Of a stretch of DNA of 43,362 nt, positions 6,966 through 41,631 are shown piece by piece. Made by a program: the position numbers and the translations under genes. Under the pieces are notes generated by a model. The model saw only the letters and a list, made by a program, of their open reading frames with translations, did not search any database and was not told the DNA's origin. Position 1 is the stretch's first letter; each line of letters begins with the position of its first letter. The DNA is from a virus. Its lineage: Duplodnaviria > Caudoviricetes. The stretch spans positions 1 to 43,362 of the IMG/VR virus record IMGVR_UViG_3300011102_000453; one strand, 5' to 3'.

Positions 6966-8180
6966 ATGACTAACTTGCATCCTATGATCTTCGGAACTCA
7001 CGACGAAAAAACCCTCGCGCAGCTCAACGATGTCGCTAGCCGCGCCGAACGTGTTGCCCTCATGGCAGACGGGCATTGTGGCTATGTGATGCCGATCGGT
7101 GGTGTCGCCGCCTACGACAATGCCGTATCCGTGGTCGGTGTAGGATTCGACATTGCGTGTGGGAATGCGGCGATTCGCACGAATACCCGCGCCGACCGCT
7201 TCACTCGGGCAGAGTATGAGCAACTAGCCGATGAGATCGCCAACGCGATCAGTTTCGGGGTTGGACGATCTAACGCGGCCGACGACGCGCCTGTCGATCA
7301 TCCGCTCTTCAGCTCCGACGCGTGGTCATTGCTACCAAAACGTGCCAACGTCGAAGGCCTGATGGACAAGGCCAGAAAGCAGCTCGGTACCGTCGGCTCT
7401 GGCAATCATTACGTCGACGTCTTTACGGACGAAGCAGGATACCTCTGGGTGGGGGTTCACTTCGGGAGCCGCGGCCTTGGCCACACGATCGCATCGGGCT
7501 TCCTTGCAGTCGGTCAGGGCGCACAGTGGGGAGAGCGCGTCCCGGAGCGTGAAGTACTCCTAAATCTTGAGAGCGAATTAGGACACGACTACTGGCATCT
7601 GATGCAGATGGCCGGGGAATATGCCTACGCCGGTCGCGAATGGGTGGCGCGCAAGGTGGTATCAATGTTTGGCGGCGAAGAAGTCGAGCTGGTCCACAAC
7701 CACCACAACTTTGCCTGGAAAGAAGTGCACGACGGACGCGAGTATATCGTGGTTCGGAAGGGCGCCACACCCGCGTTCCCAGGCCAGAAAGGCTTTGTCG
7801 GTGGATCGATGGGCGATGACGCAGTGATCCTCGAAGGCTCGAGCGCTGATACCGAGACGCAGCGTGCCGCCCTCTATTCGACGGTCCACGGCGCCGGACG
7901 TGTGATGTCACGCACTGAGGCCCGCGGAAAAACGAAGGGCTGGGGGAAGCGCGCCAAGATCGTCGCACCGGGCAAAGTATCATGGGAGATGGTAAACGAC
8001 TGGCTCGGTCCTCGCGGCGTCATTCTCCGTGGCGGCGGATTGGATGAAGCCCCGCACGCCTATCGTCGATTACCTGACGTGCTCGCAGCACAGGGCGATA
8101 CCGTTCGTGTTCTGCACACACTCACCCCATTGATTGTCGTCATGGCAGGCGAGAACGAGTATGACCCCTACAAAGATTAG
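6966..8180 (+). CDS. rtcB: RtcB RNA ligase (tRNA/RNA repair)
   Basis: MADGH.GY..PIGGV, VGFDIACG, QLGTVGSGNHY, HFGSRG, HNHHN, RKGATPA, GSMG, HGAGR, DEAPHAYR. Confidence 0.96.
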   Translation: MTNLHPMIFGTHDEKTLAQLNDVASRAERVALMADGHCGYVMPIGGVAAYDNAVSVVGVGFDIACGNAAIRTNTRADRFTRAEYEQLADEIANAISFGVGRSNAADDAPVDHPLFSSDAWSLLPKRANVEGLMDKARKQLGTVGSGNHYVDVFTDEAGYLWVGVHFGSRGLGHTIASGFLAVGQGAQWGERVPEREVLLNLESELGHDYWHLMQMAGEYAYAGREWVARKVVSMFGGEEVELVHNHHNFAWKEVHDGREYIVVRKGATPAFPGQKGFVGGSMGDDAVILEGSSADTETQRAALYSTVHGAGRVMSRTEARGKTKGWGKRAKIVAPGKVSWEMVNDWLGPRGVILRGGGLDEAPHAYRRLPDVLAAQGDTVRVLHTLTPLIVVMAGENEYDPYKD

Positions 8181-8212: not shown

Positions 8213-8404
8213 CTATCGTCCCCCTGGAAGCGATGCTCCCAGTGCGGCAAGCACCATCACTGCAGCAAATCCGAGCGCTATCAGGATGAGCGTCGCCGGG
8301 ATGGAGGCGAGCGTGACTTTTACCAATAGCCACATGAGATCAAAGAATGGGATGCGGACGCCTTCGACGATCACACGGGTTTCTCGCGGGTATTCTTTGA
8401 GCAT
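8213..8404 (-). CDS. Small membrane protein
   Basis: VRIPF..L..LLVKVTLASIPA followed by a long hydrophobic stretch. Confidence 0.7.
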   Translation of the reverse strand: MLKEYPRETRVIVEGVRIPFFDLMWLLVKVTLASIPATLILIALGFAAVMVLAALGASLPGGR

Positions 8405-8546
8405 AGGGATGGGTGGCTTTGGTGAGAGGGGAAACGCCGCAAAAATAGCTTCGTCGAATCCTGCTTGCCAGTTGTCACCCCCCCCAGCAATGCCACTTCA
8501 CGAGTCACGAGGGCACTGAGGAGGCCCTGAACGAGGCTCGCGTTGG

Positions 8547-9740
8547 CTAGTGGGAGTGTGTGGGTTGACCGAGATCGTCCCATAGCGTGACTCGATGCGT
8601 ATCGGCTGGGAGTTTGGCAACATCCTCCCACTGCACGGCCACGGGCGTTGGTGGAATCCAGCGCAGCACCGGAACGCGATGGTCAGGCGCCGAGCGCGGC
8701 CCCATCCAATACGTATGCCAGTGTGCACGACGCATATGGGGGCGCACGAGTGGATACGACCCCGGTGTCGTGCGTCCAGGTTCACCCTCCCGGTTGGCGG
8801 GTTTCCCCACGCGAAGCGCGGCCCCGACCCGTGCGCCCACCATCCATTCCGTGATGTTGTGAGCGGCAATCAATTTACGCCCCTGGCGCGGTGCGGCTGG
8901 CTCGGGTGGGTGCATCGCCATAACATCCGGCTCGTCGGAGCACAAATACAGGATGAGCGACAGCAGGGGCGCCAACTGCGGGGCCCAGTACGCCAGACGT
9001 GCCTCACGTTTTGCGCTAAACACCTGCTGGATCACGTGCTGAAACCGGTCCGCGCCCATTGCATGGAGCATCGTCGTGGCCCACATCGTCCGTGTGGCGG
9101 TGAGGAGCCCGCGTTCCACCTCCTCGTTGAGGGCAACCGCCGCGACGAGTGCGGCGGGCTCCTGTCCGTGTCGTGACTCGCAATCCAGCACAAGCGTGAG
9201 GCTATCGAATGTTGGGCGCTGCATCGCGGCCAACAGTGTCGGATCAACTACCTGCCGCAGCACGCCGTAAGGGGTCGCATCCAGCGTTGCAAACACCCCT
9301 CGCAGCGGCACGGCGGGTGTGCCTGGTGCCTCCGAAAACATCATCCCAGGGGTGCAGAGATACACTCCCCAGTGCGGCAGCCGTGTAAATATTTCCGCGG
9401 GGAGCACCACGTCTGTAATTGGTGTCCCCAGCAGCATGTCATAGAGTGTGGGGTCAAACTGATAGATCGGTTTCCCCATGCGCCACGAGGCCAGCGCGTG
9501 CACAATCCAGGGATTTCGTCCCGGAGCATCACGAGGCGCTGGAGGGTCTACGAGCGTATCAATCGCTCCGGTGGCGATGGACGCCGGGATATAACACCAC
9601 GGCGCCCACGGCGTATCGGTATCAGTGAGATATTTCTCGCGTGCGCGATCAATGACACGCCACACGCGCGGCGAATACGCGCGCTCGCACACACGCAGCC
9701 AATGATAGGGGCGTTCGGCTATCGTTGACGCCGCCACCAT
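8547..9740 (-). CDS. acrVA2: AcrVA2/FinQ-family anti-CRISPR protein
   Basis: Colinear motifs matching AcrVA2 as recalled: WR..KPIYQFD, IF..LP.W.VY, RGVFA..D, LILYLCSDEPD, VG.RVG..LR, RPHMRRAHWHTYW.G, RW.PP..V. Confidence 0.85.
   Translation of the reverse strand: MVAASTIAERPYHWLRVCERAYSPRVWRVIDRAREKYLTDTDTPWAPWCYIPASIATGAIDTLVDPPAPRDAPGRNPWIVHALASWRMGKPIYQFDPTLYDMLLGTPITDVVLPAEIFTRLPHWGVYLCTPGMMFSEAPGTPAVPLRGVFATLDATPYGVLRQVVDPTLLAAMQRPTFDSLTLVLDCESRHGQEPAALVAAVALNEEVERGLLTATRTMWATTMLHAMGADRFQHVIQQVFSAKREARLAYWAPQLAPLLSLILYLCSDEPDVMAMHPPEPAAPRQGRKLIAAHNITEWMVGARVGAALRVGKPANREGEPGRTTPGSYPLVRPHMRRAHWHTYWMGPRSAPDHRVPVLRWIPPTPVAVQWEDVAKLPADTHRVTLWDDLGQPTHSH
9116..9164. repeat. 49-bp dispersed direct repeat A, copy 2 (inside acrVA2)
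   Basis: Matches 5766-5814 at 48 of 49 positions. Confidence 0.95.
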
Positions 9741-10123
9741 TGCTCGACGGCCTCCACGATGGCCACCTCCTCGTGATAGGAGAGCGTCTCCAGTTTCTCC
9801 AGGAGCGACCGGTGCAGGTCGGATAGATCCCCGTCCTCTCGTGGCTCGTCGACGTCGTCAAGATAATCTCGAACCCCGACGACGAGCCCACGGATCATGG
9901 CAGCTGGCTCGTGAATCACGCCCTGCAGCGCGGCCCGCAGGACGTCCCACTCCTCTGGCGTAAATTTTCGTTCGATTCGCGTTCGTTCGAGCATTTCAGC
10001 ATAGCGATCCGCGATCGTGGTGAGCCGCCCAGTGAGGGACACCCCCTCCGGCATCGCTCCCAACGCGTTCTGGAGTGGTGGGGTCAGGTAAATCGAGCGT
10101 TTTCGTTTATCGTATGTCGCCAT
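9719..10123 (-). CDS. RHH-like DNA-binding protein of mobile elements
   Basis: N-terminal RKRSIYL beta strand followed by two helices (SLTGRLTTIADRY); overlaps the acrVA2 start. Confidence 0.65.
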   Translation of the reverse strand: MATYDKRKRSIYLTPPLQNALGAMPEGVSLTGRLTTIADRYAEMLERTRIERKFTPEEWDVLRAALQGVIHEPAAMIRGLVVGVRDYLDDVDEPREDGDLSDLHRSLLEKLETLSYHEEVAIVEAVEQWWRRQR

Positions 10124-10421
10124 AGGATATTTCGGTCTGTGATGCTGACGTGGTTGAGGCGAACCGTCCAATCCATCGCTCCATCATGGCCGCGAGAATC
10201 GAGGCTCCGGTCAGGACGAGACTGAGCATGATGCCCACGGCAGCGAGCACGCAGAGCACGCCCAGGAGCGTCCAGTTGATGACGGAGGGGGGTTTTGATT
10301 GGGCGACGATGATCGCAGCCACCACGATGGTCATCATGGCTCCGGCCATCCCTACGCCCACCACGGCGAACAGCTCAAAAAAATATTTTTCCGCGACGGC
10401 ACGCATTGTTTTTGTTGTCAT
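10107..10421 (-). CDS. Two-TM membrane protein
   Basis: GAGGAG RBS before ATG 10421; two hydrophobic segments. Confidence 0.65.
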   Translation of the reverse strand: MTTKTMRAVAEKYFFELFAVVGVGMAGAMMTIVVAAIIVAQSKPPSVINWTLLGVLCVLAAVGIMLSLVLTGASILAAMMERWIGRFASTTSASQTEISYGDIR

Positions 10422-10450
10422 TAGAGGCTCCTCTCGGATGTTGATCGGAA

Positions 10451-10479
10451 CGGGGACGATGGGCTCCCCATCGCCCCCG
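10451..10479 (-). other. 13-bp RNA hairpin between genes (stabiliser or attenuator)
   Basis: CGGGGACGATGGG-CTC-CCCATCGCCCCCG; the single mismatch becomes a G-U pair on the minus strand. Confidence 0.6.
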
Positions 10480-10490
10480 CATATCACCGG

Positions 10491-10805
10491 TTACCAGGTT
10501 TCGATGTCCCGCCACATTTTGCGGGCCTCACGTCGGATGAGAGCGGCGAGCGGCTCCCGTCCATCCCACCGCAGCGTGTTCCCTGTCGAGGCGAGGCCAT
10601 CACAGACCTGTGGGTTGCGTCCGTCGCTCGTGCGTTGGCGGACATACCCGCCGCCGATCGGCGCAAAAAATGCCCACTCGACCTGCTCCCCGAATCCATT
10701 ATCTCCGACATAGGTGGCCTGGTTGTCACGGTCAGCAACCACCCGATAGCGAGGGGAGCGGCGTGAGGTGGCGGTGGCGGCAGTGGTGTTCGTTACGTTC
10801 ATCAT
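10491..10805 (-). CDS. Small protein, possible AcrIE9-like anti-CRISPR
   Basis: F.P.G..YV...QVC.G....G.TL.WDG....A.IRR pattern resembles AcrIE9 as recalled; first gene after a strong promoter; AAGGAG RBS. Confidence 0.5.
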   Translation of the reverse strand: MMNVTNTTAATATSRRSPRYRVVADRDNQATYVGDNGFGEQVEWAFFAPIGGGYVRQRTSDGRNPQVCDGLASTGNTLRWDGREPLAALIRREARKMWRDIETW

Positions 10806-10877
10806 AATAATTCTCCTTGCATGACCTTTTCGGTCGTCTCATGGGTAGCGATCGACCCCGTGTCGATCGCACGAGGA

Positions 10878-10905
10878 AATATATACAGACTCACTACATA
10901 GTCAA
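10878..10905 (-). promoter_or_regulatory. Sigma70-type promoter P2 of the acr island
   Basis: TTGACT-N16-TATATT on the minus strand; tandem TGACTAT repeats overlap the -35; 9-bp hairpin at 10848-10870 in the 5' UTR. Confidence 0.75.
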
Positions 10906-10931
10906 TATATAGTCAGCGCGTTTTTCGTTTT

Positions 10932-10957
10932 GTTACAATTCATTCGGGATTTCTTCG
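10932..10957. repeat. 26-bp direct repeat B, copy 1
   Basis: GTTACAATTCATTCGGGATTTCTTCG, identical to 11919-11944. Confidence 0.95.
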
Positions 10958-11251
10958 GATGGCCTCTTTTTCTCCCTGGCCCGCTAGTCCTCCCTCCTGT
11001 GTCCCGCCCCGATAGATCTGGTAGGGCTGGGGGCCTCGGTCCAGGCGGATCATCTCCACAATCGGCGGATACATCACGATCGCCCGCAGCAGTTGGCGGG
11101 TCGTGCCGCCAACCCTGGGGAATGGTCTCGAGCCATCCCGCCAGCCGCGCACGGTGCGCTCGTTCACGCCGCACACTGCGGTTGCAAATTTCCGATCCGA
11201 GAGCCCCGCCGCTGCAATGGCGGCCTCCAACAGGCGTTGATCCGTGGTCAT
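10940..11251 (-). CDS. Aca-like HTH regulator
   Basis: GLSDRKFA...GVNERTVRGW..G.RP HTH; last gene of a two-gene unit in the acr island. Confidence 0.7.
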   Translation of the reverse strand: MTTDQRLLEAAIAAAGLSDRKFATAVCGVNERTVRGWRDGSRPFPRVGGTTRQLLRAIVMYPPIVEMIRLDRGPQPYQIYRGGTQEGGLAGQGEKEAIRRNPE

Positions 11252-11254
11252 GGA

Positions 11255-11812
11255 TTAGCCCTCCTGGGTGAGGAGGGCATCGATCTCAGCGATCCGAGCC
11301 ACGAGGCGATCCCGCTCGGCCTGCAATGCAACACGGTCGATCACTGGCGCCTCATCGACGATGTCGAGCCCCAACTGTTCGGCTGTCGCACGCGGGAAAT
11401 CCCGCACGAGCACCGCGGTCCCGTCGACGACCTGGGTCTCCCAGTTTTTCACCGAGCCGCCGCTGCGAAACCCGCCGGATTCCAGGATAACCCCGTCGCC
11501 CAGCTTGGCCCCCCCATCCCGCCCAAACGCCCGTGCAATCGTCCGTCCCGCGACCGCGATCGGACCACACCGCACCGCCGCGGCCTTCTCAAATCGGACC
11601 CGCACCGTGACGAGATCCTGTGTCCGGCCATCACTGCCATAGATGGTTTGACACAGCTCACGCACACGGGCCTCGTCGCGGATGTCGAACCGCCAGGATT
11701 TATCTGCCGCATGCCATTTCCCGGCGATCCGCCTGGCCGCGTCCACGAACTCGGGGTTATACGGGGCGACGACGGCAATCTGTGTGTCAGTCGTGGTGAT
11801 CGTGACAATCAT
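11255..11812 (-). CDS. Conserved MGE protein, candidate anti-defence factor
   Basis: PYNPEFV..AR...GKW....W.FD.RDE..VRELC..IYG.DG...GRD.GA.LGDGV...GG..SGGS.KNW...L.AER.RL.ARIAEIDALL, a family I recognise from phages and plasmids; GAGGAG RBS. Confidence 0.75.
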   Translation of the reverse strand: MIVTITTTDTQIAVVAPYNPEFVDAARRIAGKWHAADKSWRFDIRDEARVRELCQTIYGSDGRTQDLVTVRVRFEKAAAVRCGPIAVAGRTIARAFGRDGGAKLGDGVILESGGFRSGGSVKNWETQVVDGTAVLVRDFPRATAEQLGLDIVDEAPVIDRVALQAERDRLVARIAEIDALLTQEG

Positions 11813-11863
11813 TGTATGCTCTCCTCGTATTTGGTCGGGCGTCATTGCCCTGACACATGGAGG

Positions 11864-11892
11864 AATATAGGGTCTATTGCCCTAGGGCACAA
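11864..11892 (-). promoter_or_regulatory. Sigma70-type promoter P1 with overlapping inverted repeat (candidate Aca operator)
   Basis: TTGTGC-N17-TATATT on the minus strand; TGCCCTAGGGCA palindrome flanked by TAGGGT..ACCCTA. Confidence 0.75.
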
Positions 11893-11918
11893 TACCCTAA
11901 TTGGAGGTATCGTACATC

Positions 11919-11944
11919 GTTACAATTCATTCGGGATTTCTTCG
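11919..11944. repeat. 26-bp direct repeat B, copy 2
   Basis: Identical to 10932-10957. Confidence 0.95.
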
Positions 11945-12835: not shown

Positions 12836-12968
12836 GACAGACTAGTTAGCTTCGCCGCTGCATCTGGCGAGGCTCGGTTGGACGGCTCATCTACCATGCG
12901 TAGAAGGAGCAACGAGGCCGTTTCAGGCGGTGACGGTCTAGACCTGGGTGGGGACACTCCCCCCAAAT

Positions 12969-13041
12969 AGCGGCGAATGTTCCAAGGCTGGCGACGGAGA
13001 CTCCAAATCTCTGTGGGTGGGTTCGATTCCTACCGCCGCTG
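12969..13041 (+). tRNA. tRNA-Trp(CCA), non-canonical; CCA end not encoded
   Basis: Acceptor AGCGGCG/CGCCGCT plus discriminator G; anticodon arm CGGAGA-CTCCAAA-TCTCTG; T arm GTGGG-TTCGATT-CCTAC. Confidence 0.85.
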
Positions 13042-13042
13042 T

Positions 13043-13266: not shown

Positions 13267-13311
13267 AACGGCTCTCTATCTCCGCACTGCGGAACTGGAG
13301 GGCCGTTTTTT
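13267..13311 (+). terminator. Intrinsic terminator-like hairpin that sequesters the tad2 RBS
   Basis: AACGGCTCTCTA/TGGAGGGCCGTT stem plus T tract; GGAGG at 13297-13301 lies in the 3' arm. Confidence 0.75.
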
Positions 13312-13552
13312 GTTAGAGACGTTTGATTTTGGCACCGCAATCGAGAGACTGAGAGCGGGCTATCTCGTCACGAGAAGCGGATGGAATGGGCGAGGCATGT
13401 GGCTCGCGCTTCAGGAGCCGGATGACAGCTCGAACATGACACGCCCATACATCTACATGAAAACGGCGGACGATGCATTCGTCCCGTGGGTGGCGAGCCA
13501 GAGTGACATCCTCGCGAACGACTGGCAGACGATCACAGCCCCGTCGCAGTGA
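13310..13552 (+). CDS. tad2: Tad2-family (DUF2829) immune-signal sponge
   Basis: FG.AI..L..G..V.R.GWNG.GMWL....PYIYMKTA....VPW.ASQ.D.LA.DW signature; TTG start. Confidence 0.88.
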   Translation: MLETFDFGTAIERLRAGYLVTRSGWNGRGMWLALQEPDDSSNMTRPYIYMKTADDAFVPWVASQSDILANDWQTITAPSQ

Positions 13553-33852: not shown

Positions 33853-36800
33853 ATGACTGCCCCCATTCAACCTGCCGACGACCCAGTCGCTCGATACCTC
33901 CAGAAGTATGGGAAGACGTCGCAGCCACACGATCCCGTAGAGCGGTATCTCGCGAGGTACGGGAAGCCCAACACAGATGCTCGTACCGGCGTCGAAAACT
34001 TTGGACGTGGCGTCGCGCGTGGTCTCTCAAAGACTGGGACGTCTACCGCGAAAGGAGTTGGTTGGGTCGCGGGCTTAGTCTCGGATGACGTTGGTGGTCG
34101 GATTACCAATTGGGCGAACGAACAAGAACGTCTTGCTGATGAATTCTACGATCCACAAGGGACCGTCGGGAAGGCCGGTGAGATCGTTGGCAGGGTCATT
34201 GGCGAGGGCGCAACGACCCTCGCGGGCGGTGGGCTCATCGGCAAGGCCATACAGAAGCTCGCCCCGGCCTCGAAGGTGGCTCGTGCGATCACGGCAGGGT
34301 CGAAAGGAAATTTTGCACAACGCTTGACAGCCCAAACCGCCCCATTCGTTCCCGCAGATTTCGTGCTTGGTGCAGGGGCTGCGGAAGATGGAGAAAGCCG
34401 CACTGGTGCGGGTGTGACGAATGTCCTGCTTGGCGCGGCTGGCGCCGGCCTCATCGAAGGGGCCGCTTCCGGCTATCGTGCTGCCAAGGGAGCACTCAAA
34501 GGTCGCGGCGGTGATGTTGCCAAGTCGGTCGAAGTGCCCGTCGTCGCACGTGAACCAAAACTACTGCCGGAACGCGCCGGATCTTATGCAGGCGATGCGC
34601 AGCTTGGGCCCGCTATCCCAATGCGCGGCCGCGAGATCGCTGCACCGCCATCGACCAAACGGCTTGGTCCCAAGGTGCCACCGCAGCTGATCGAAGCGGA
34701 AACAAACGCCCAGATGGACGCGATTGAGCGGGCGTTGCCCATGACCCGCGCACAACGCCGTCCACTCCGGAAGCAGATTCGGGCCGACGTGAAGAACCGG
34801 TACGGCTTCGCTGACCCTGCCGTACTCGGACAGGTGGCTGGTGCAGGTGGTGGCGCGCTCATTGGCGCTGCCGTGGACGACGAGAACCCGGGCCGCGGCG
34901 CTCTCATCGGCTTCACCCTCGGCGCCGGGTCCGCACGGATGGCCTCAAAGCAGATCGCCAAGGGCCTGGCACGAGAAGCTCGCGCCTCTGGCCTCTCCGA
35001 TGAACTGGCTGGCGCCTACGAACGCGCTGCGTCCAACATTGACTTCACGGGCGAGATCGCCAAAGCGGCCGATCGTAGCGGTACTGATCGCTCCCTCCGT
35101 GGGATGATCTCACGATTCGCGGATCAGATCGGCAATGGGTACCTCCCGATTGAACGGATCGGAGAGCGAGTGGATTCAAAACTTCGCCCATCCCAGAATC
35201 CGCGAGACCTCATGTCGCTCTTTAAGTCGAGCGACGAAACCGTCAAGCAATTCCTCGACAACGGCGTGATCGATCCGGTCACGCGCGACGTCGTAGGACC
35301 GTCCTATAAATCGCTCTTTGAGCCCTTTGGGCAGAACGATGCACGGATCGCACAGGCCCTAACCTACATCAAAGCCGAACGCGATCTTGGTCGCGGGCTT
35401 TCTGGCGTGGGGGGTGACGCGCAGGCACTTGCCGATGCCCACACGATTGTCACGCACGGACGGAATGATCCCGTGTTGCAGCAGTTCCGCCAGCAGTGGG
35501 AGTCGTATGTTGACGGGATTGGGAACTACGCTGTCAAGTCGGGCCTGTGGACGCCACAGCTCTGGGAGCGGATCAAGAATTCTGATGCGCTGTATGTCCC
35601 ATTCAAACGAATTATGGAGTCCGGCGTCTCTGATGTGCGTCGCGGCGCTGGTCGCGGCCTCGTCAATGTCACACCAGGGGTTAAAAAATTCGTTGGATCC
35701 CGCCGTGCGATCGCCAATCCAGCGGAGGCGATGGCTGAATACACAGCGTTGATTATCCGACGGGCAGATCGCTATCGCGTTGGGGCATCGCTATTTGATG
35801 CGGCAAAGGAGCTCGGCCCCGAAGGCGATCTACTGCTGACACGGATTGACCCCTCCGACATCCCGGCGTCTATGCGTGGATCGCGCGCGATGCAGGCTAT
35901 TGAGAATGCCAAGTCGCTCGGATTGAACGATGATGCCGCATCTGAACTCGCGGAAACGTTTGCGATTCATCACGACCCCAAGAATCCCGTCATCTGGCGG
36001 AACCTCCCAGATGGGTCGAGGGAATACGCCATGGTGAATTCCCCTTCGCTGTGGAATGCCCTATCGATGATGCACGAGCGTGACCCTGGCGCAGTGCGGC
36101 AATTACTAGATGTCACCATTCGTCCACTGAAACGGGTCTTTACCGCAGCAACAACCGGTCTCAACCCTCGGTTCGCCCTCGCAACAAACCCCATTCGTGA
36201 TGTTGTGGACGCATCAGCCAAGAGTCAGGCGGGATTGACTCCGAAAGATATTGCTCGCGGATACTACGAGGGGATCCTTGATGCGTTTGGGAAGTCGGAC
36301 CTCGCCGATGAGGCCGCACGGTTCGGGATGGGGCACGTCTCGATGTTCGATCAGGCGATTGCACCAAAGGCGGTTGCCCGTCGGATCGCGCCCACCTTTC
36401 CACGCGCGAAGGCTCGCTCGCGGATCGAGCGCACCGTGAGTGCGCCAGTCCGGGCGTTAGAAGCGGCGGGCAGCGCAAGCGATCTCGGACCACGACTCGG
36501 TGAATATTTGGCGACGCTCCGGAAGTACCAGCATAAAGTCGATGCGGGCGAATGGACCCCAGCCGATCTCCGCATGCGCGCAAGCACGTTGGGCCGGGGC
36601 GTCACGCTCGATTTTGCCAACAAGCCGGGCAATGCGGTGTTGCGCTTCTTTGGAGATTACGTTCCGTTCTTCAACGTTGCTCTTCAAGCCCCGGTCGCAA
36701 TGGGGCGTGCTGCGGCCAGAAACCCCAGGCGCGTAGCTGGTGCGGCGTCGACCGTTGCAACGGCAACCGCTCTCGCGTGGGCACTCAAGCAGCAACTTCC

Positions 36801-37752
36801 CGAAGATGAGCGACAGGCGCTGAATGATCGCCCCGCGACGGAACGGGCAGCATTTCTACTGGTTCCGACCCCGGGACCTCTCTTGCGCTTCCCCATGGGG
36901 CAAGAGTTCGCGATCATCGCCGCTGGAGTCGAAGCTGCACTCAACCGACTGGCGGGTGAGGACCCATACAGCGCCAACGTCCTCGCACAAAGCCTTGTCC
37001 GTGCGTTGCCTCCAGGGATTGGCGAATTAGCCGAGGGCAACCTATCCGTGCCCATCCCTGGGGTACAGCAACTTTTTGAGAATGCCAAAAACCGACGCGA
37101 CTATGGCGGAGCGCCCGTGGTTCCCCGCCGGCTGGAAGATCTTCCGGCGTCTGAGCGCCGCCAGCCAACGACATCCCCAACCTTTGACGCAATTGCCGCA
37201 GGTGGGCGAGCTCTCGGCTTCGAGGAGTTTTCTCCGCTGCAAGCAGAAAACCTTGTCCGAGGTATAACGTCTGCGGCGACGCCGTTTATTACGTCCGCAA
37301 CCGATCCCATCGCCTCACGCATAATGGGCCGTGATGCCCAACCGAAAATCCCATTTGCGCCATCTGAGCATCCGTTAAATCCCGCCTCGTCCATTATTGC
37401 CCGCGATGTCCCCGGAGGAACGCAAAGCGAGCGAGAGTTTTATGAGATACGCGACAAGGTCCAGCAAGGAGCATCCTTGTTGCGTCAGATAAAAAAAACA
37501 AAGGATTATGCGGGAGTAGAGCGGCTTCGGGAGTATGCGCCGTATTTGGCTCCGGATGTTGCGAATGTTGTTGATGCCGTGGCGTCCGCAGCCAAGCGCA
37601 TCCGCGACCAAGAGGCCATGATCCAAAACGCTTATGGAGAGGGCAAGATCAACTCCCATGTTGCCCGCGAGGCGCTAAACAAGCTGAGAAGTCAGCGCCA
37701 GGAGATCATACGCCGTGGGATGTCTGTCATTCGTACTCGGGTGGGAATGTAA
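33853..37752 (+). CDS. Large internal virion protein (LPD38-like C-terminal region)
   Basis: 1299 aa; YVPF.R, T..NP.F...N..RD, RLGEY, VTLDF, VPFFN..LQ, LRFP.GQE, SP.QAE.L.RG motifs typical of LPD38-containing proteins. Confidence 0.75.
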   Translation: MTAPIQPADDPVARYLQKYGKTSQPHDPVERYLARYGKPNTDARTGVENFGRGVARGLSKTGTSTAKGVGWVAGLVSDDVGGRITNWANEQERLADEFYDPQGTVGKAGEIVGRVIGEGATTLAGGGLIGKAIQKLAPASKVARAITAGSKGNFAQRLTAQTAPFVPADFVLGAGAAEDGESRTGAGVTNVLLGAAGAGLIEGAASGYRAAKGALKGRGGDVAKSVEVPVVAREPKLLPERAGSYAGDAQLGPAIPMRGREIAAPPSTKRLGPKVPPQLIEAETNAQMDAIERALPMTRAQRRPLRKQIRADVKNRYGFADPAVLGQVAGAGGGALIGAAVDDENPGRGALIGFTLGAGSARMASKQIAKGLAREARASGLSDELAGAYERAASNIDFTGEIAKAADRSGTDRSLRGMISRFADQIGNGYLPIERIGERVDSKLRPSQNPRDLMSLFKSSDETVKQFLDNGVIDPVTRDVVGPSYKSLFEPFGQNDARIAQALTYIKAERDLGRGLSGVGGDAQALADAHTIVTHGRNDPVLQQFRQQWESYVDGIGNYAVKSGLWTPQLWERIKNSDALYVPFKRIMESGVSDVRRGAGRGLVNVTPGVKKFVGSRRAIANPAEAMAEYTALIIRRADRYRVGASLFDAAKELGPEGDLLLTRIDPSDIPASMRGSRAMQAIENAKSLGLNDDAASELAETFAIHHDPKNPVIWRNLPDGSREYAMVNSPSLWNALSMMHERDPGAVRQLLDVTIRPLKRVFTAATTGLNPRFALATNPIRDVVDASAKSQAGLTPKDIARGYYEGILDAFGKSDLADEAARFGMGHVSMFDQAIAPKAVARRIAPTFPRAKARSRIERTVSAPVRALEAAGSASDLGPRLGEYLATLRKYQHKVDAGEWTPADLRMRASTLGRGVTLDFANKPGNAVLRFFGDYVPFFNVALQAPVAMGRAAARNPRRVAGAASTVATATALAWALKQQLPEDERQALNDRPATERAAFLLVPTPGPLLRFPMGQEFAIIAAGVEAALNRLAGEDPYSANVLAQSLVRALPPGIGELAEGNLSVPIPGVQQLFENAKNRRDYGGAPVVPRRLEDLPASERRQPTTSPTFDAIAAGGRALGFEEFSPLQAENLVRGITSAATPFITSATDPIASRIMGRDAQPKIPFAPSEHPLNPASSIIARDVPGGTQSEREFYEIRDKVQQGASLLRQIKKTKDYAGVERLREYAPYLAPDVANVVDAVASAAKRIRDQEAMIQNAYGEGKINSHVAREALNKLRSQRQEIIRRGMSVIRTRVGM
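35794..35841. repeat. 48-bp dispersed direct repeat C, copy 2
   Basis: Matches 33409-33456 at 46 of 48 positions. Confidence 0.95.
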
Positions 37753-40165: not shown

Positions 40166-41335
40166 CTAGGGATTGCTCCGGCAATAGGCTGCAAATTGCT
40201 CATAGACCGACCTGCGAATGCGCTGTAGCCGAGGGCGGCAGTAATCACGAGATCGTACGTGATTCCAAGTAGCCAGTCTTTCCATTTGTCCCGGATTCGA
40301 CCGAATTTCTTGAATTTGTCGAGCTAGGGTGGCACTATCTTTGGGCTTGTGGAGGCATTCTTCAGGTAAGAGTTCTGGAATGCCTCCAACGCTTGAGCCT
40401 AGGGACGGACATGCTCTGAACATGGCTTCAATCATAGCGCGAGGCATTCCTTCGGTATAGCTGGGTTGGAGATAAAGATCGATATTATCCAGCCAATCAT
40501 ATACGGCTGCCCCAGCGGGGCGTGATCCGTCGAAATGGACACGGTGTCCGATTCCCATACGCTGAGCCATGTGACGCCATGGCTCAGGTGATCCTGGCCC
40601 CAGGATACGAAGTGAAAGAGTGTCATCACCAATGCGGCGCAGAGCATCGAATGCAGTTTCAATCCCCTTATAACGGGGTGTGAGCGAGGCGATTATACCT
40701 AGGACAAAATCGCATTTGATACGGTGGATTCTTTCAATTCGACGATGTAGCGTTAGGCTGTCTGGTTCCGGGATTTCAACATTAGAGCAAGCAACCGACC
40801 ACCCTTCTGTTGGATAGCGGCGTTGAAGAAACTGTTGGGTGACATAGACTGCGAACGGTGCATGCTCTACAGCTTTGCGCATAGAGTGACGCCAGACAGG
40901 GGCGAGCGGTGCAATGTATGCGCCACCATAGTTCAGAGCCACATCCCATGGGCACCCTACAACTTCAACCATCCATGGCTTTCGGAGCCGTTTCGCAACG
41001 CGAATGGCCGCAATGCTGATTTGACTCGGGACCCGTGCGATTAGTCCTGCTGCCTGCTTGAGTTGCAGTTCAATTGCATCTTCCACTTGCCGCCGTTTTG
41101 TAATAGTATCCCAAGGATGGCTCAACGACGCCACATATTCAAACTCAATACCCGGACCGCTCGATACCGACAGCTGCCCAGGAGTATCGGTAGTGCCATG
41201 ACGGCCTATCACGGTCATCCTATCAAAGACTTCTAGGTAGCGCTCCCAGACTGCGTAAGGAAATGTGCCATCGCTATAGGCAATCCCGTTCTGGTCGCAA
41301 AGAAATCGATGATCGTGCGAGAAAACTATATGCAT
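40166..41335 (-). CDS. GT4-family glycosyltransferase (moron)
   Basis: YKGIE, DLYLQPSYTEGMPRAMIEAM...P.LGSSVGGIPELL GT-B signature; visibly more AT-rich than its flanks. Confidence 0.92.
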   Translation of the reverse strand: MHIVFSHDHRFLCDQNGIAYSDGTFPYAVWERYLEVFDRMTVIGRHGTTDTPGQLSVSSGPGIEFEYVASLSHPWDTITKRRQVEDAIELQLKQAAGLIARVPSQISIAAIRVAKRLRKPWMVEVVGCPWDVALNYGGAYIAPLAPVWRHSMRKAVEHAPFAVYVTQQFLQRRYPTEGWSVACSNVEIPEPDSLTLHRRIERIHRIKCDFVLGIIASLTPRYKGIETAFDALRRIGDDTLSLRILGPGSPEPWRHMAQRMGIGHRVHFDGSRPAGAAVYDWLDNIDLYLQPSYTEGMPRAMIEAMFRACPSLGSSVGGIPELLPEECLHKPKDSATLARQIQEIRSNPGQMERLATWNHVRSRDYCRPRLQRIRRSVYEQFAAYCRSNP

Positions 41336-41631
41336 AATTGACGGAATGGACGCCCTAACATAGCATAGTAAAAAAAATCGCACCAGAGGTGCGAAAGCCG
41401 CTTCCCTCGGTCCAGCGCTCTCCCCAGCTCCTCCCAGGACACCCCGAGGGCATCAATCACGTTCCCCACGGTATTAATCGTCACATGGCGCTGATCCCGT
41501 TCGATCATGCCAATAAACGTGCGGTCTACGCCCGCCTCAAAGGCGAGTCGCTCCTGCGTGAAATCCGCCTCCTCGCGATAGGCGCGGAGGGTGGGGCCGA
41601 TGACATGGGAGACAGGGTGATCTTTCGCCAC
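41326..41631 (-). CDS. XRE HTH regulator, R-M controller (C-protein)-like
   Basis: LRAYRE...TQERLAFEAGVDRTFIGMIER..R..TI......AL.VS. Confidence 0.88.
   Translation of the reverse strand: MAKDHPVSHVIGPTLRAYREEADFTQERLAFEAGVDRTFIGMIERDQRHVTINTVGNVIDALGVSWEELGRALDRGKRLSHLWCDFFYYAMLGRPFRQLCI

What the first reader, a model, noticed from the sequence alone, without database searches (positions are those of the whole stretch)
8213..11944. Leftward anti-CRISPR island: AcrVA2 homologue plus several uncharacterised Acr candidates
Seen: seven minus-strand genes behind two strong promoters interrupt an otherwise rightward genome. One carries the AcrVA2 motif series, including RPHxRRxHWHxYW; two are small DNA-binding proteins (HTH, RHH). 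Known: AcrVA2 blocks Cas12a biogenesis, and acr genes cluster with aca regulators. Inference: 11255-11812, 10491-10805, 10107-10421 and 8213-8404 are guilt-by-association anti-defence candidates. If the host lacks type V-A CRISPR, this AcrVA2/FinQ-family protein may target a different defence or transfer system.
Basis: partly seen in the sequence, partly recalled or inferred. Interest (0 to 1): 0.8.

Follow-up and report, generated by a model that had tools for sequence, protein, structure and literature searches.

The report
Phage operon pairing two anti-CRISPR families
A bacterial virus carries a seven-gene island in which a relative of the anti-CRISPR AcrVA2 overlaps a relative of the self-repressing anti-CRISPR AcrIE10, so the island likely disarms host immunity early in infection, and type I CRISPR becomes a predicted, untested target for a protein family whose targets are mostly unknown.

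Summary
The island is real: seven leftward genes behind two promoter-like sites that lie in register with an exact 26-nt repeat. 8547-9740 belongs to the AcrVA2/FinQ family (PDB 7CI1, E 8e-10; top Foldseek hits) and keeps all five residues AcrVA2 needs. It keeps DNA-reading R7/S10 but lacks E78. A co-fold with E. coli Cas7 scored 0.81 against 0.08 for the best control, possibly from memory of the solved complex. The two families are neighbours in 6 of 139 distinct AcrVA2-like loci, though neither depends on the other. The other four 'Acr candidates' matched no anti-CRISPR; two look membrane-bound. Host unknown (weak Gemmatimonadota hint); Cas12a absence not shown. The scan has noted each family in phage operons on other DNA; no note or paper I found names this pairing. 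Verdict: new variant of a known kind; no activity tested.

The parts
11919..11944 (.). 26-nt exact direct repeat, copy 1, 27 nt upstream of the P1 -35 box
   Evidence: 2 exact copies, 0 of 100 shuffles; no exact match of an 18-nt part in viral contigs
11864..11899 (-). Promoter-like site P1 (-35 TTGTGC at 11892, -10 TATATT at 11869) overlapped by two TAGGG-N7-CCCTA inverted repeats (11868-11884, 11883-11899): candidate operator
   Evidence: only 2 matches in the window, 6 of 100 shuffles reach 2 at one mismatch; function inferred
11255..11812 (-). 185-aa protein of a widespread unnamed family: HARP-like N-terminal domain, glycine-rich beta domain, C-terminal helix; function unknown, weak anti-defence candidate
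   Evidence: 2073 clusters at E<=0.001; phrog_18108 E 2e-32; model pLDDT 95.6; no PDB fold match at E<=0.001; HARP likeness
10940..11251 (-). Cro/Xre-like HTH protein (about residues 1-68, then a tail that ends inside the repeat): Aca-like repressor candidate
   Evidence: Pfam HTH_23 E 0.009 under cut-off; 44% to the HTH gene behind the same family in L189; 4-sequence profile hits Cro proteins at E 0.009-0.015 and no Aca entry
10932..10957 (.). 26-nt exact direct repeat, copy 2, 27 nt upstream of the P2 -35 box; holds the HTH stop codon
10878..10915 (-). Promoter-like site P2 (-35 TTGACT at 10905, -10 TATATT at 10883) with two near-palindromic 10-mers at an 11-bp period across the -35 box: candidate operator
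   Evidence: same period as the 9-2-9 inverted repeat in front of acrIE9.2-acrIE10 in L241; AT-rich, not tested against chance
10800..10875 (-). 5' leader with a perfect 9-bp hairpin and a Shine-Dalgarno site
   Evidence: fold z -2.82, 1 of 200 shuffles as good
10491..10805 (-). 104-aa soluble basic protein of a small unnamed family; best-placed unknown candidate (first gene behind P2)
   Evidence: 4 relatives at 40-51% identity; no PDB, Pfam, PHROG, NCBIfam or named-phage match
10107..10421 (-). 104-aa hydrophobic protein, likely membrane-bound; poor classical Acr candidate
   Evidence: Kyte-Doolittle 19-residue maximum 2.86; no family
9719..10123 (-). AcrIE10-family protein: N-terminal ribbon-helix-helix plus C-terminal helical bundle; predicted repressor and Cas7 binder
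   Evidence: profile vs PDB 8ji9_D/9m7t/9m71/9uer E 3-4e-12; single sequence E 8e-4; hhalign 97.9%, E 4.6e-13; co-fold
8547..9740 (-). AcrVA2/FinQ-family protein, start codon 22 nt inside the AcrIE10-like gene
   Evidence: phmmer vs 7ci1 E 7.6e-10; Foldseek top three hits 7ci2/7ci1, E 4e-8 to 4e-7; tblastn hits annotated AcrVA2 and finQ; W86, D96, H335, R337, H340 kept
8213..8404 (-). 63-aa hydrophobic protein, likely membrane-bound, 142 nt behind the AcrVA2-like gene; poor classical Acr candidate
   Evidence: Kyte-Doolittle maximum 2.69, no clear Shine-Dalgarno site; one phage hit at E 0.2
6966..8180 (+). RtcB RNA ligase (flank, not part of the operon)
   Evidence: PF01139 E 3e-66
13310..13552 (+). 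Tad2-like protein (flank, not part of the operon)
   Evidence: PF11195 E 3e-25, over the cut-off

Best explanation
The island is two tandem leftward gene blocks, the second carrying an AcrIE10-family gene that overlaps an AcrVA2-family gene, and it likely works as a self-limiting early counter-defence operon. Inferred course: on entry the unrepressed promoters P1 and P2 fire; the AcrVA2-like protein would bind the emerging N-terminus of one host protein on the ribosome and trigger loss of its mRNA; the AcrIE10-like protein would dimerise through its ribbon-helix-helix, shut a promoter of the island, and be released when its C-terminal bundle binds free Cas7; the HTH protein would repress the other promoter. 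My single best guess for the target is the host's type I (I-E-like) CRISPR system, with the AcrVA2-like gene in the cargo role that acrIE9.2 has on Klebsiella plasmids. Shown: gene layout, both homologies, kept residues, repeated adjacency. Predicted: Cas7 binding. Inferred: repression, expression timing, mRNA decay, the target. Odds: anti-defence operon about 0.7; RHH protein represses the island about 0.7; it binds Cas7 about 0.4; the AcrVA2-like target is a type I cas gene about 0.2.
For: AcrVA2 family; W79, D89, H286, R288, H291, which the AcrVA2 preprint found needed, align to W86, D96, H335, R337, H340. AcrIE10 family; R7, S10, T29 (DNA contacts in PMC13530269) align to R7, S10, T31, and R38, Y39, G64, E68, P69, D81 are kept. 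Co-fold of two copies with E. coli Cas7: score 0.81, best of 3 controls 0.08; runs agree in at least 77% of contacts, partner pLDDT at least 79; the mark was reached by 116 of 157 solved complexes and 2 of 215 mismatched pairs (rough here); the predicted surface includes 5 of the 7 mappable positions of the published AcrIE10-Cas7* bonds (60, 67, 69, 72, 83). The two families lie within about 450 nt of each other, same strand, in 8 of 160 AcrVA2-like loci, 6 of 139 clusters at 90% identity, against 0 of 69 loci centred on the 185-aa family. The closest phage relative (L001, 41%) has the same order behind a similar promoter. Operator-like repeats overlap both promoter-like sites. RtcB, a tRNA and a Tad2-like gene flank the island.
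Against: E78, whose loss cripples Cas7* binding and anti-CRISPR activity of AcrIE10, is G83 here and not E in any of 9 relatives aligned; only 1 of 8 published bonding residues is identical, and R113 is A125. The co-fold may rest on memory of PDB 8JI9 and used a stand-in Cas7. The adjacency is rare and the contrast with the control is only p=0.054, with duplicates in and a control that is not neutral. Only 1 of 6 loci centred on the RHH family (5 distinct) holds an AcrVA2-like gene. Of the two cellular genomes with the pair, one has type I-E cas7 (G056) and one gave no match (G015), against 10 of 50 overall. Identity to AcrVA2 is low (21% to a Moraxella phage relative; TM 0.35, model pLDDT 63.6). 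In L001 the AcrVA2-like gene is frameshifted ahead of its HxRxxH motif. FinQ shows that the family also acts on non-defence targets. No host, no expression data, no assay.
Confidence: 0.62

Rival explanations
1. The RHH protein is only an Aca-type repressor that has lost or never had Cas7 binding, and the AcrVA2-like protein silences a non-CRISPR defence gene; the pairing reflects a borrowed regulator.
For: E78 is absent across the relatives aligned; the RHH family mostly sits beside other cargo (1 of 6 loci); AcrVA2 orthologues usually occur without Cas12a; earlier unchecked notes of the scan show AcrVA2-like genes with several different regulators.
Against: The G-x-x-x-E-P loop that contacts Cas7 in the model is the best-kept part of the C-terminal domain; in L068, and probably L094, the neighbour of the AcrVA2-like gene lacks the DNA-binding front end, so it cannot be there as a repressor.
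Confidence: 0.3
2. The AcrVA2-like protein works like FinQ: it silences a gene of a rival mobile element or of a superinfecting phage, and the two small membrane proteins serve exclusion; the island is for competition between elements rather than against host immunity.
For: FinQ is in the family and inhibits F-plasmid transfer; 517 of 557 plasmid records with a match are predicted conjugative; two island genes are hydrophobic.
Against: The overlapping gene is an AcrIE10 relative with a predicted Cas7 interface; the plasmid count is dominated by enterobacterial finQ; no transfer genes were seen among the 46 window proteins scanned.
Confidence: 0.15
3. It is a true AcrVA2 that blocks Cas12a biogenesis in its host.
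For: All five tested residues are kept; AcrVA2 acts on Cas12a orthologues only 35% alike.
Against: Low identity, with most divergence in the N-terminal and middle parts; orthologues are typically found without Cas12a.
Confidence: 0.07
4. An ordinary block of early host-takeover genes with no counter-defence role; the anti-CRISPR likenesses are shared folds only.
For: Five of seven genes have no functional match; GC and GC3 are close to the rest of the genome; no activity was measured.
Against: Two overlapping genes each match a different characterised anti-CRISPR over their length with functional residues kept, and the adjacency recurs in 6 lineages.
Confidence: 0.1

Closest known systems
AcrVA2 of Moraxella bovoculi prophages (PDB 7CI1, 7CI2; bioRxiv 10.1101/2022.11.29.518452) and plasmid FinQ
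   Same: Same family by sequence and fold; W79, D89, H286, R288, H291 equivalents kept; encoded on a mobile element beside another anti-CRISPR-family gene.
   Different: About 21-25% identity, 75 residues longer; partner is AcrIE10-like, not AcrVA1; target unknown; nothing ties it to Cas12a.
AcrIE10 and the acrIE9.2-acrIE10 operon of Klebsiella plasmids (PDB 8JI9, 9M71, 9M7T, 9UER; PMC11317147, PMC13530269)
   Same: Ribbon-helix-helix plus helical bundle over the whole length; R7, S10, T29, E68, D81 kept; overlaps its cargo gene; inverted repeats over the promoter-like sites, one at the same 11-bp period; predicted to dock on Cas7 by the same face.
   Different: About 32% identity; E78 replaced by G, R113 by A; on a phage; cargo is AcrVA2-like, lying downstream, where the plasmid operon has acrIE9.2 upstream; a second (HTH) regulator is present.
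acr-aca operons with HTH Aca repressors (as summarised in PMC13530269)
   Same: Small HTH gene at the end of a gene block; palindromic repeats over the promoter; structured 5' leaders.
   Different: The HTH matched Cro-type proteins only, no Aca entry; its cargo (185-aa HARP-like protein) is no known Acr.

Membership tests
AcrVA2/FinQ family | Sequence and fold homology to AcrVA2 | tested here: met
   phmmer E 7.6e-10 to 7ci1; only three Foldseek hits at E<=0.001, all AcrVA2; tblastn hits to genes annotated AcrVA2 and finQ
AcrVA2/FinQ family | C-terminal H-x-R-x-x-H (H286, R288, H291) and W79, D89 | tested here: met
   H335, R337, H340, W86, D96
AcrVA2 proper (anti-Cas12a) | Binds the Cas12a N-terminus and lowers cas12a mRNA | not testable with these tools
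   needs an assay
AcrVA2 proper (anti-Cas12a) | Host carries type V-A CRISPR | tested here: inconclusive
   host unknown; 0 of 50 genomes with AcrVA2-like genes matched TIGR04330, but no control rang
AcrIE10 family | Full-length homology: N-terminal RHH plus C-terminal helical bundle | tested here: met
AcrIE10 family | DNA-contact residues R7, N8, S10, V28, T29 | tested here: met
   R7, K8, S10, L30, T31: 3 of 5 identical, 2 changed
AcrIE10 as anti-CRISPR | E78, needed for Cas7* binding | tested here: not met
   G83 here; G in 7, D in 1, S in 1 of 9 relatives
AcrIE10 as anti-CRISPR | Binds type I-E Cas7 through the C-terminal bundle | tested here: inconclusive
   co-fold supports it (0.81 against 0.08), but a like complex is solved (8JI9) and the Cas7 is a stand-in
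AcrIE10 as repressor | Inverted repeat over its own promoter with two sub-sites at an 11-bp period | tested here: inconclusive
   P2 has two near-palindromic 10-mers at this period (8 of 10 pairs); P1 has a different repeat and resembles the L001 promoter more; which protein binds which is open
AcrIE10 operon | Linked to acrIE9/acrIE9.2 | not tested
   no direct comparison of the island's small genes with AcrIE9 was run; 10491-10805 had no PDB sequence match at E<=5
Aca HTH repressors | HTH domain homologous to Aca1-13 | tested here: inconclusive
   HTH-like, under Pfam cut-offs; Cro hits only
Aca HTH repressors | Represses the upstream promoter | not testable with these tools
   needs a reporter or EMSA

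The most novel reading that the evidence does not exclude
A Cas7-sensing repressor gates a translation-coupled silencer aimed at the same system: the AcrIE10-like protein reads free Cas7 without E78 and, when Cas7 rises, releases an AcrVA2-like protein that destroys a type I cas mRNA as it is translated. This would give the AcrVA2/FinQ family its first class 1 CRISPR target and a recurring two-step module (block assembly, then block synthesis) found in at least six lineages.
Probability: 0.17. Interest if true: 0.85.

Novelty: new variant of a known kind. Interest (0 to 1): 0.52.

Why it matters
AcrVA2 is the one known bacterial example of mRNA decay triggered by recognising a nascent peptide, and its relatives mostly live in hosts without Cas12a, so their targets are an open question. 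An AcrIE10-like partner points at one testable target class, type I Cascade genes, and extends RHH-type acr regulation from Klebsiella plasmids to a distant phage lineage. Both families are already catalogued, AcrIE10 relatives are already reported in a few phages, and nothing is shown at the bench, which caps the interest.

Tried and rejected
The best plasmid hit of RtcB is Gemmatirosa kalamazoonensis, 65.8% against 48-49% for the next; DnaB and terminase gave only 31-44% hits to mixed groups. This is a hint only. Cas12a survey: 0 of 50 genomes (50 of the 80 genome loci: 5 second loci of one genome and 25 further loci left out, L150 picked on purpose), and an attempted positive control gave 0 of 121 with no control genome ringing, so it is not used as evidence. 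Expression: no RNA holder listed. Variable gene content: one contig in run X5 breaks off at 9737 and one in X3 covers only 10931-10971; these are short pieces that I could not resolve, so I do not claim a swapped slot. The 26-nt repeat has no exact relative in viral contigs and does not fold notably (z -0.15, -0.35). Rfam: no match in the window. The 185-aa protein: no PDB sequence or fold match; the wider fold search never ran. An obligate RHH-AcrVA2 module is rejected. E-values of the iterated RHH profile are circular and not used; the first-pass values are, and the L001 and L021 proteins were in those seeds. A shared operator for the window's and L001's RHH proteins was looked for and not found in consistent geometry. 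My notebook's '500 nt' for L180 was wrong: the AcrVA2-like gene starts about 1.15 kb behind the HARP-like gene, two genes further on, and is cut by the contig end.


Full report
Setting. The window is a whole 43,362-base phage record whose first 20 bases recur near its end, with DnaB, terminase, P22-like portal, major head and amidase genes. The one run holding nearly all of the island is a compost metagenome that may be its source. The host is not known.

Observation. Seven minus-strand ORFs fill 8213-11812. They fall into two blocks. Block 1 is 11255-11812 and 10940-11251, 3 nt apart. Block 2 is 10491-10805, 10107-10421, 9719-10123, 8547-9740 and 8213-8404; the middle three overlap by 17 and 22 nt. 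Each block has a promoter-like site with the same -10 box, TATATT. The consensus scan passes only P2 and finds no more sites than chance, so strength is not shown. Better support is an exact 26-nt repeat lying 27 nt upstream of each -35 box, operator-like repeats over both sites, and folded leaders (z -2.8 and -3.3). The repeat brackets block 1, which may have come in, or could be lost, as a unit (inference).

The AcrVA2-like gene. 8547-9740 matches AcrVA2 by sequence (E 7.6e-10) and by predicted fold (the only three hits at E<=0.001; the model is middling, pLDDT 63.6). It also hits genes annotated AcrVA2 and finQ. The AcrVA2 preprint found W79, D89, H286, R288 and H291 needed; these align to W86, D96, H335, R337 and H340 (the PDB chain is numbered one higher). 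My Pfam copy gave no hit; the precomputed tag PF26125 appears, and its name 'AcrVA2-like' I have only from earlier notes. Membership of the family is met; activity against Cas12a is untested and unlikely, since the preprint reports orthologues mostly in hosts without Cas12a.

The RHH gene is an AcrIE10 relative. A 13-sequence profile of 9719-10123 and relatives hits four AcrIE10 chains at E 3-4e-12 over positions 3-120 of 131. The single sequence hits them at E 8e-4 to 1e-3, and hhalign gives 97.9%. AcrIE10 represses its operon through the RHH and binds free Cas7 through its C-terminal bundle, the two roles competing for one surface. R7, S10 and T29 are kept, as are R38, Y39, G64, E68, P69 and D81. 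E78, whose mutation impairs Cas7* binding and anti-CRISPR activity, is G83, and only 1 of the 8 published bonding residues is identical. Against that, a co-fold of two copies with E. coli Cas7 scored 0.81, best of three controls 0.08, with at least 77% of contacts shared between runs and partner pLDDT at least 79; the mark was reached by 116 of 157 solved complexes and 2 of 215 mismatched pairs, roughly applicable here. The contact face (residues 57-93) is the published one. Because 8JI9 is solved, the pass may show likeness only.

Does the pair recur? I fetched the best 80 of 243 viral loci and the best 80 of 243 genome loci encoding AcrVA2-like proteins. The RHH family lies on the same strand within about 450 nt in 8 of these 160, which are 6 of 139 clusters at 90% identity: three upstream, three downstream. 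In 69 loci centred on the 185-aa family it occurs 0 times; Fisher p=0.054, duplicates included and the control not neutral. In the reverse direction 1 of 6 RHH-centred loci holds an AcrVA2-like gene. So the pairing is repeated but optional. In L068 the neighbour has only the C-terminal bundle, and in L094 it lacks at least the first strand, which a pure repressor role does not explain. L001, the closest relative (41%), has the window's order behind an HTH-like gene and a promoter that resembles P1; its AcrVA2-like gene is frameshifted ahead of the HxRxxH motif. Type I-E cas7 was found over the cut-off in 10 of 50 genomes carrying AcrVA2-like genes, including one of the two with the pair: uninformative.

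The other genes. 11255-11812 belongs to a large unnamed family (2073 clusters), folds confidently (pLDDT 95.6), has a HARP-like N-terminal domain by weak or automatic labels and no solved match. Among 69 loci, 1 has an AcrVA2-like gene nearby (L180) and 5 have an HTH-looking gene next (judged by eye; only L199 checked over a Pfam cut-off; no control). That is mild support for a regulated accessory gene. 10940-11251 is a Cro/Xre-like HTH with weak scores. 10491-10805 has four relatives and no named match. 10107-10421 and 8213-8404 are hydrophobic, which fits classical soluble Acrs poorly (my knowledge). In related contigs the few substitutions listed in 8213-8404 (2 of 2) and 10491-10805 (4 of 6) fall on third codon positions (positions worked out by hand), consistent with real genes.

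Mechanism and rivals. I commit to a self-limiting early counter-defence operon whose best-guess target is type I CRISPR; the steps and odds are in Best explanation. The main rival keeps the anti-defence role but treats the RHH protein as a borrowed repressor; a FinQ-like role against rival elements, a true anti-Cas12a role and no counter-defence role are less likely.

Novelty. Both families are known, and AcrIE10 relatives were reported in 3 lytic phages and 11 prophages. A full-text search for papers holding both names returned one review, whose AcrVA2 passages that I saw treat them separately; searches for each name are. Subscription papers are mostly missing from the library. The scan has noted AcrVA2-like genes with a small RHH regulator and AcrIE10-like repressors in phage operons on other DNA; none of its notes holds both names.

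What I read. 10.1101/2022.11.29.518452: parts 1-2 of 4 (abstract, results, discussion). PMC13530269: parts 1-5 of 9 (abstract to start of methods). PMC11317147, 10.1101/2025.05.07.652737, PMC13131331, PMC13728456, PMC12908700, 10.64898/2026.02.23.707548: passages only. The 2026 journal version of the AcrVA2 work I know only from an editorial passage. No supplements were read; their homologue lists and alignments could bear on E78 conservation and on whether the pairing was already seen.

Noticed in passing
   Followed up: no
window 6966-8180 (+) and 12968-13042 (+): RtcB RNA ligase and a tRNA-Trp gene flank the island; possibly a counter to RNA-cutting defences (inference). RtcB's best plasmid hit is Gemmatirosa, 65.8%.
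   Followed up: partly
window 10932-10957 and 11919-11944: Exact 26-nt repeat in register with both promoter-like sites; could be an upstream factor site or a scar of cassette gain. Recombination between the copies would remove block 1.
   Followed up: partly
L001 5404-6603: AcrVA2-like gene frameshifted ahead of the HxRxxH motif; protein P0002 from another source shows the same out-of-frame tail. Real break, sequencing error or recoding is not resolved.
   Followed up: partly
L068 3383-3709; L094 5004-5498: AcrIE10-like C-terminal bundle without (L068) or with a shortened (L094) RHH front end, next to AcrVA2-like genes.
   Followed up: no
L180 3498-5592: HARP-like family gene, two unknown genes, then an AcrVA2-like gene cut by the contig end, right of a lysis block: a second island sharing two families with the window.
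   Followed up: partly
window 40166-41383 (-): Lone leftward glycosyltransferase gene (GT4-type Pfam hits) near the amidase gene.
   Followed up: no
window 33853-37752 (+): 1299-aa protein with a large polyvalent protein domain LPD38 (E 9e-18), probably an ejected virion protein.
   Followed up: no
L241 816-835: Perfect 9-2-9 inverted repeat ahead of acrIE9.2-acrIE10, matching the published 20-bp, 2-bp-spacer operator description.
   Followed up: yes
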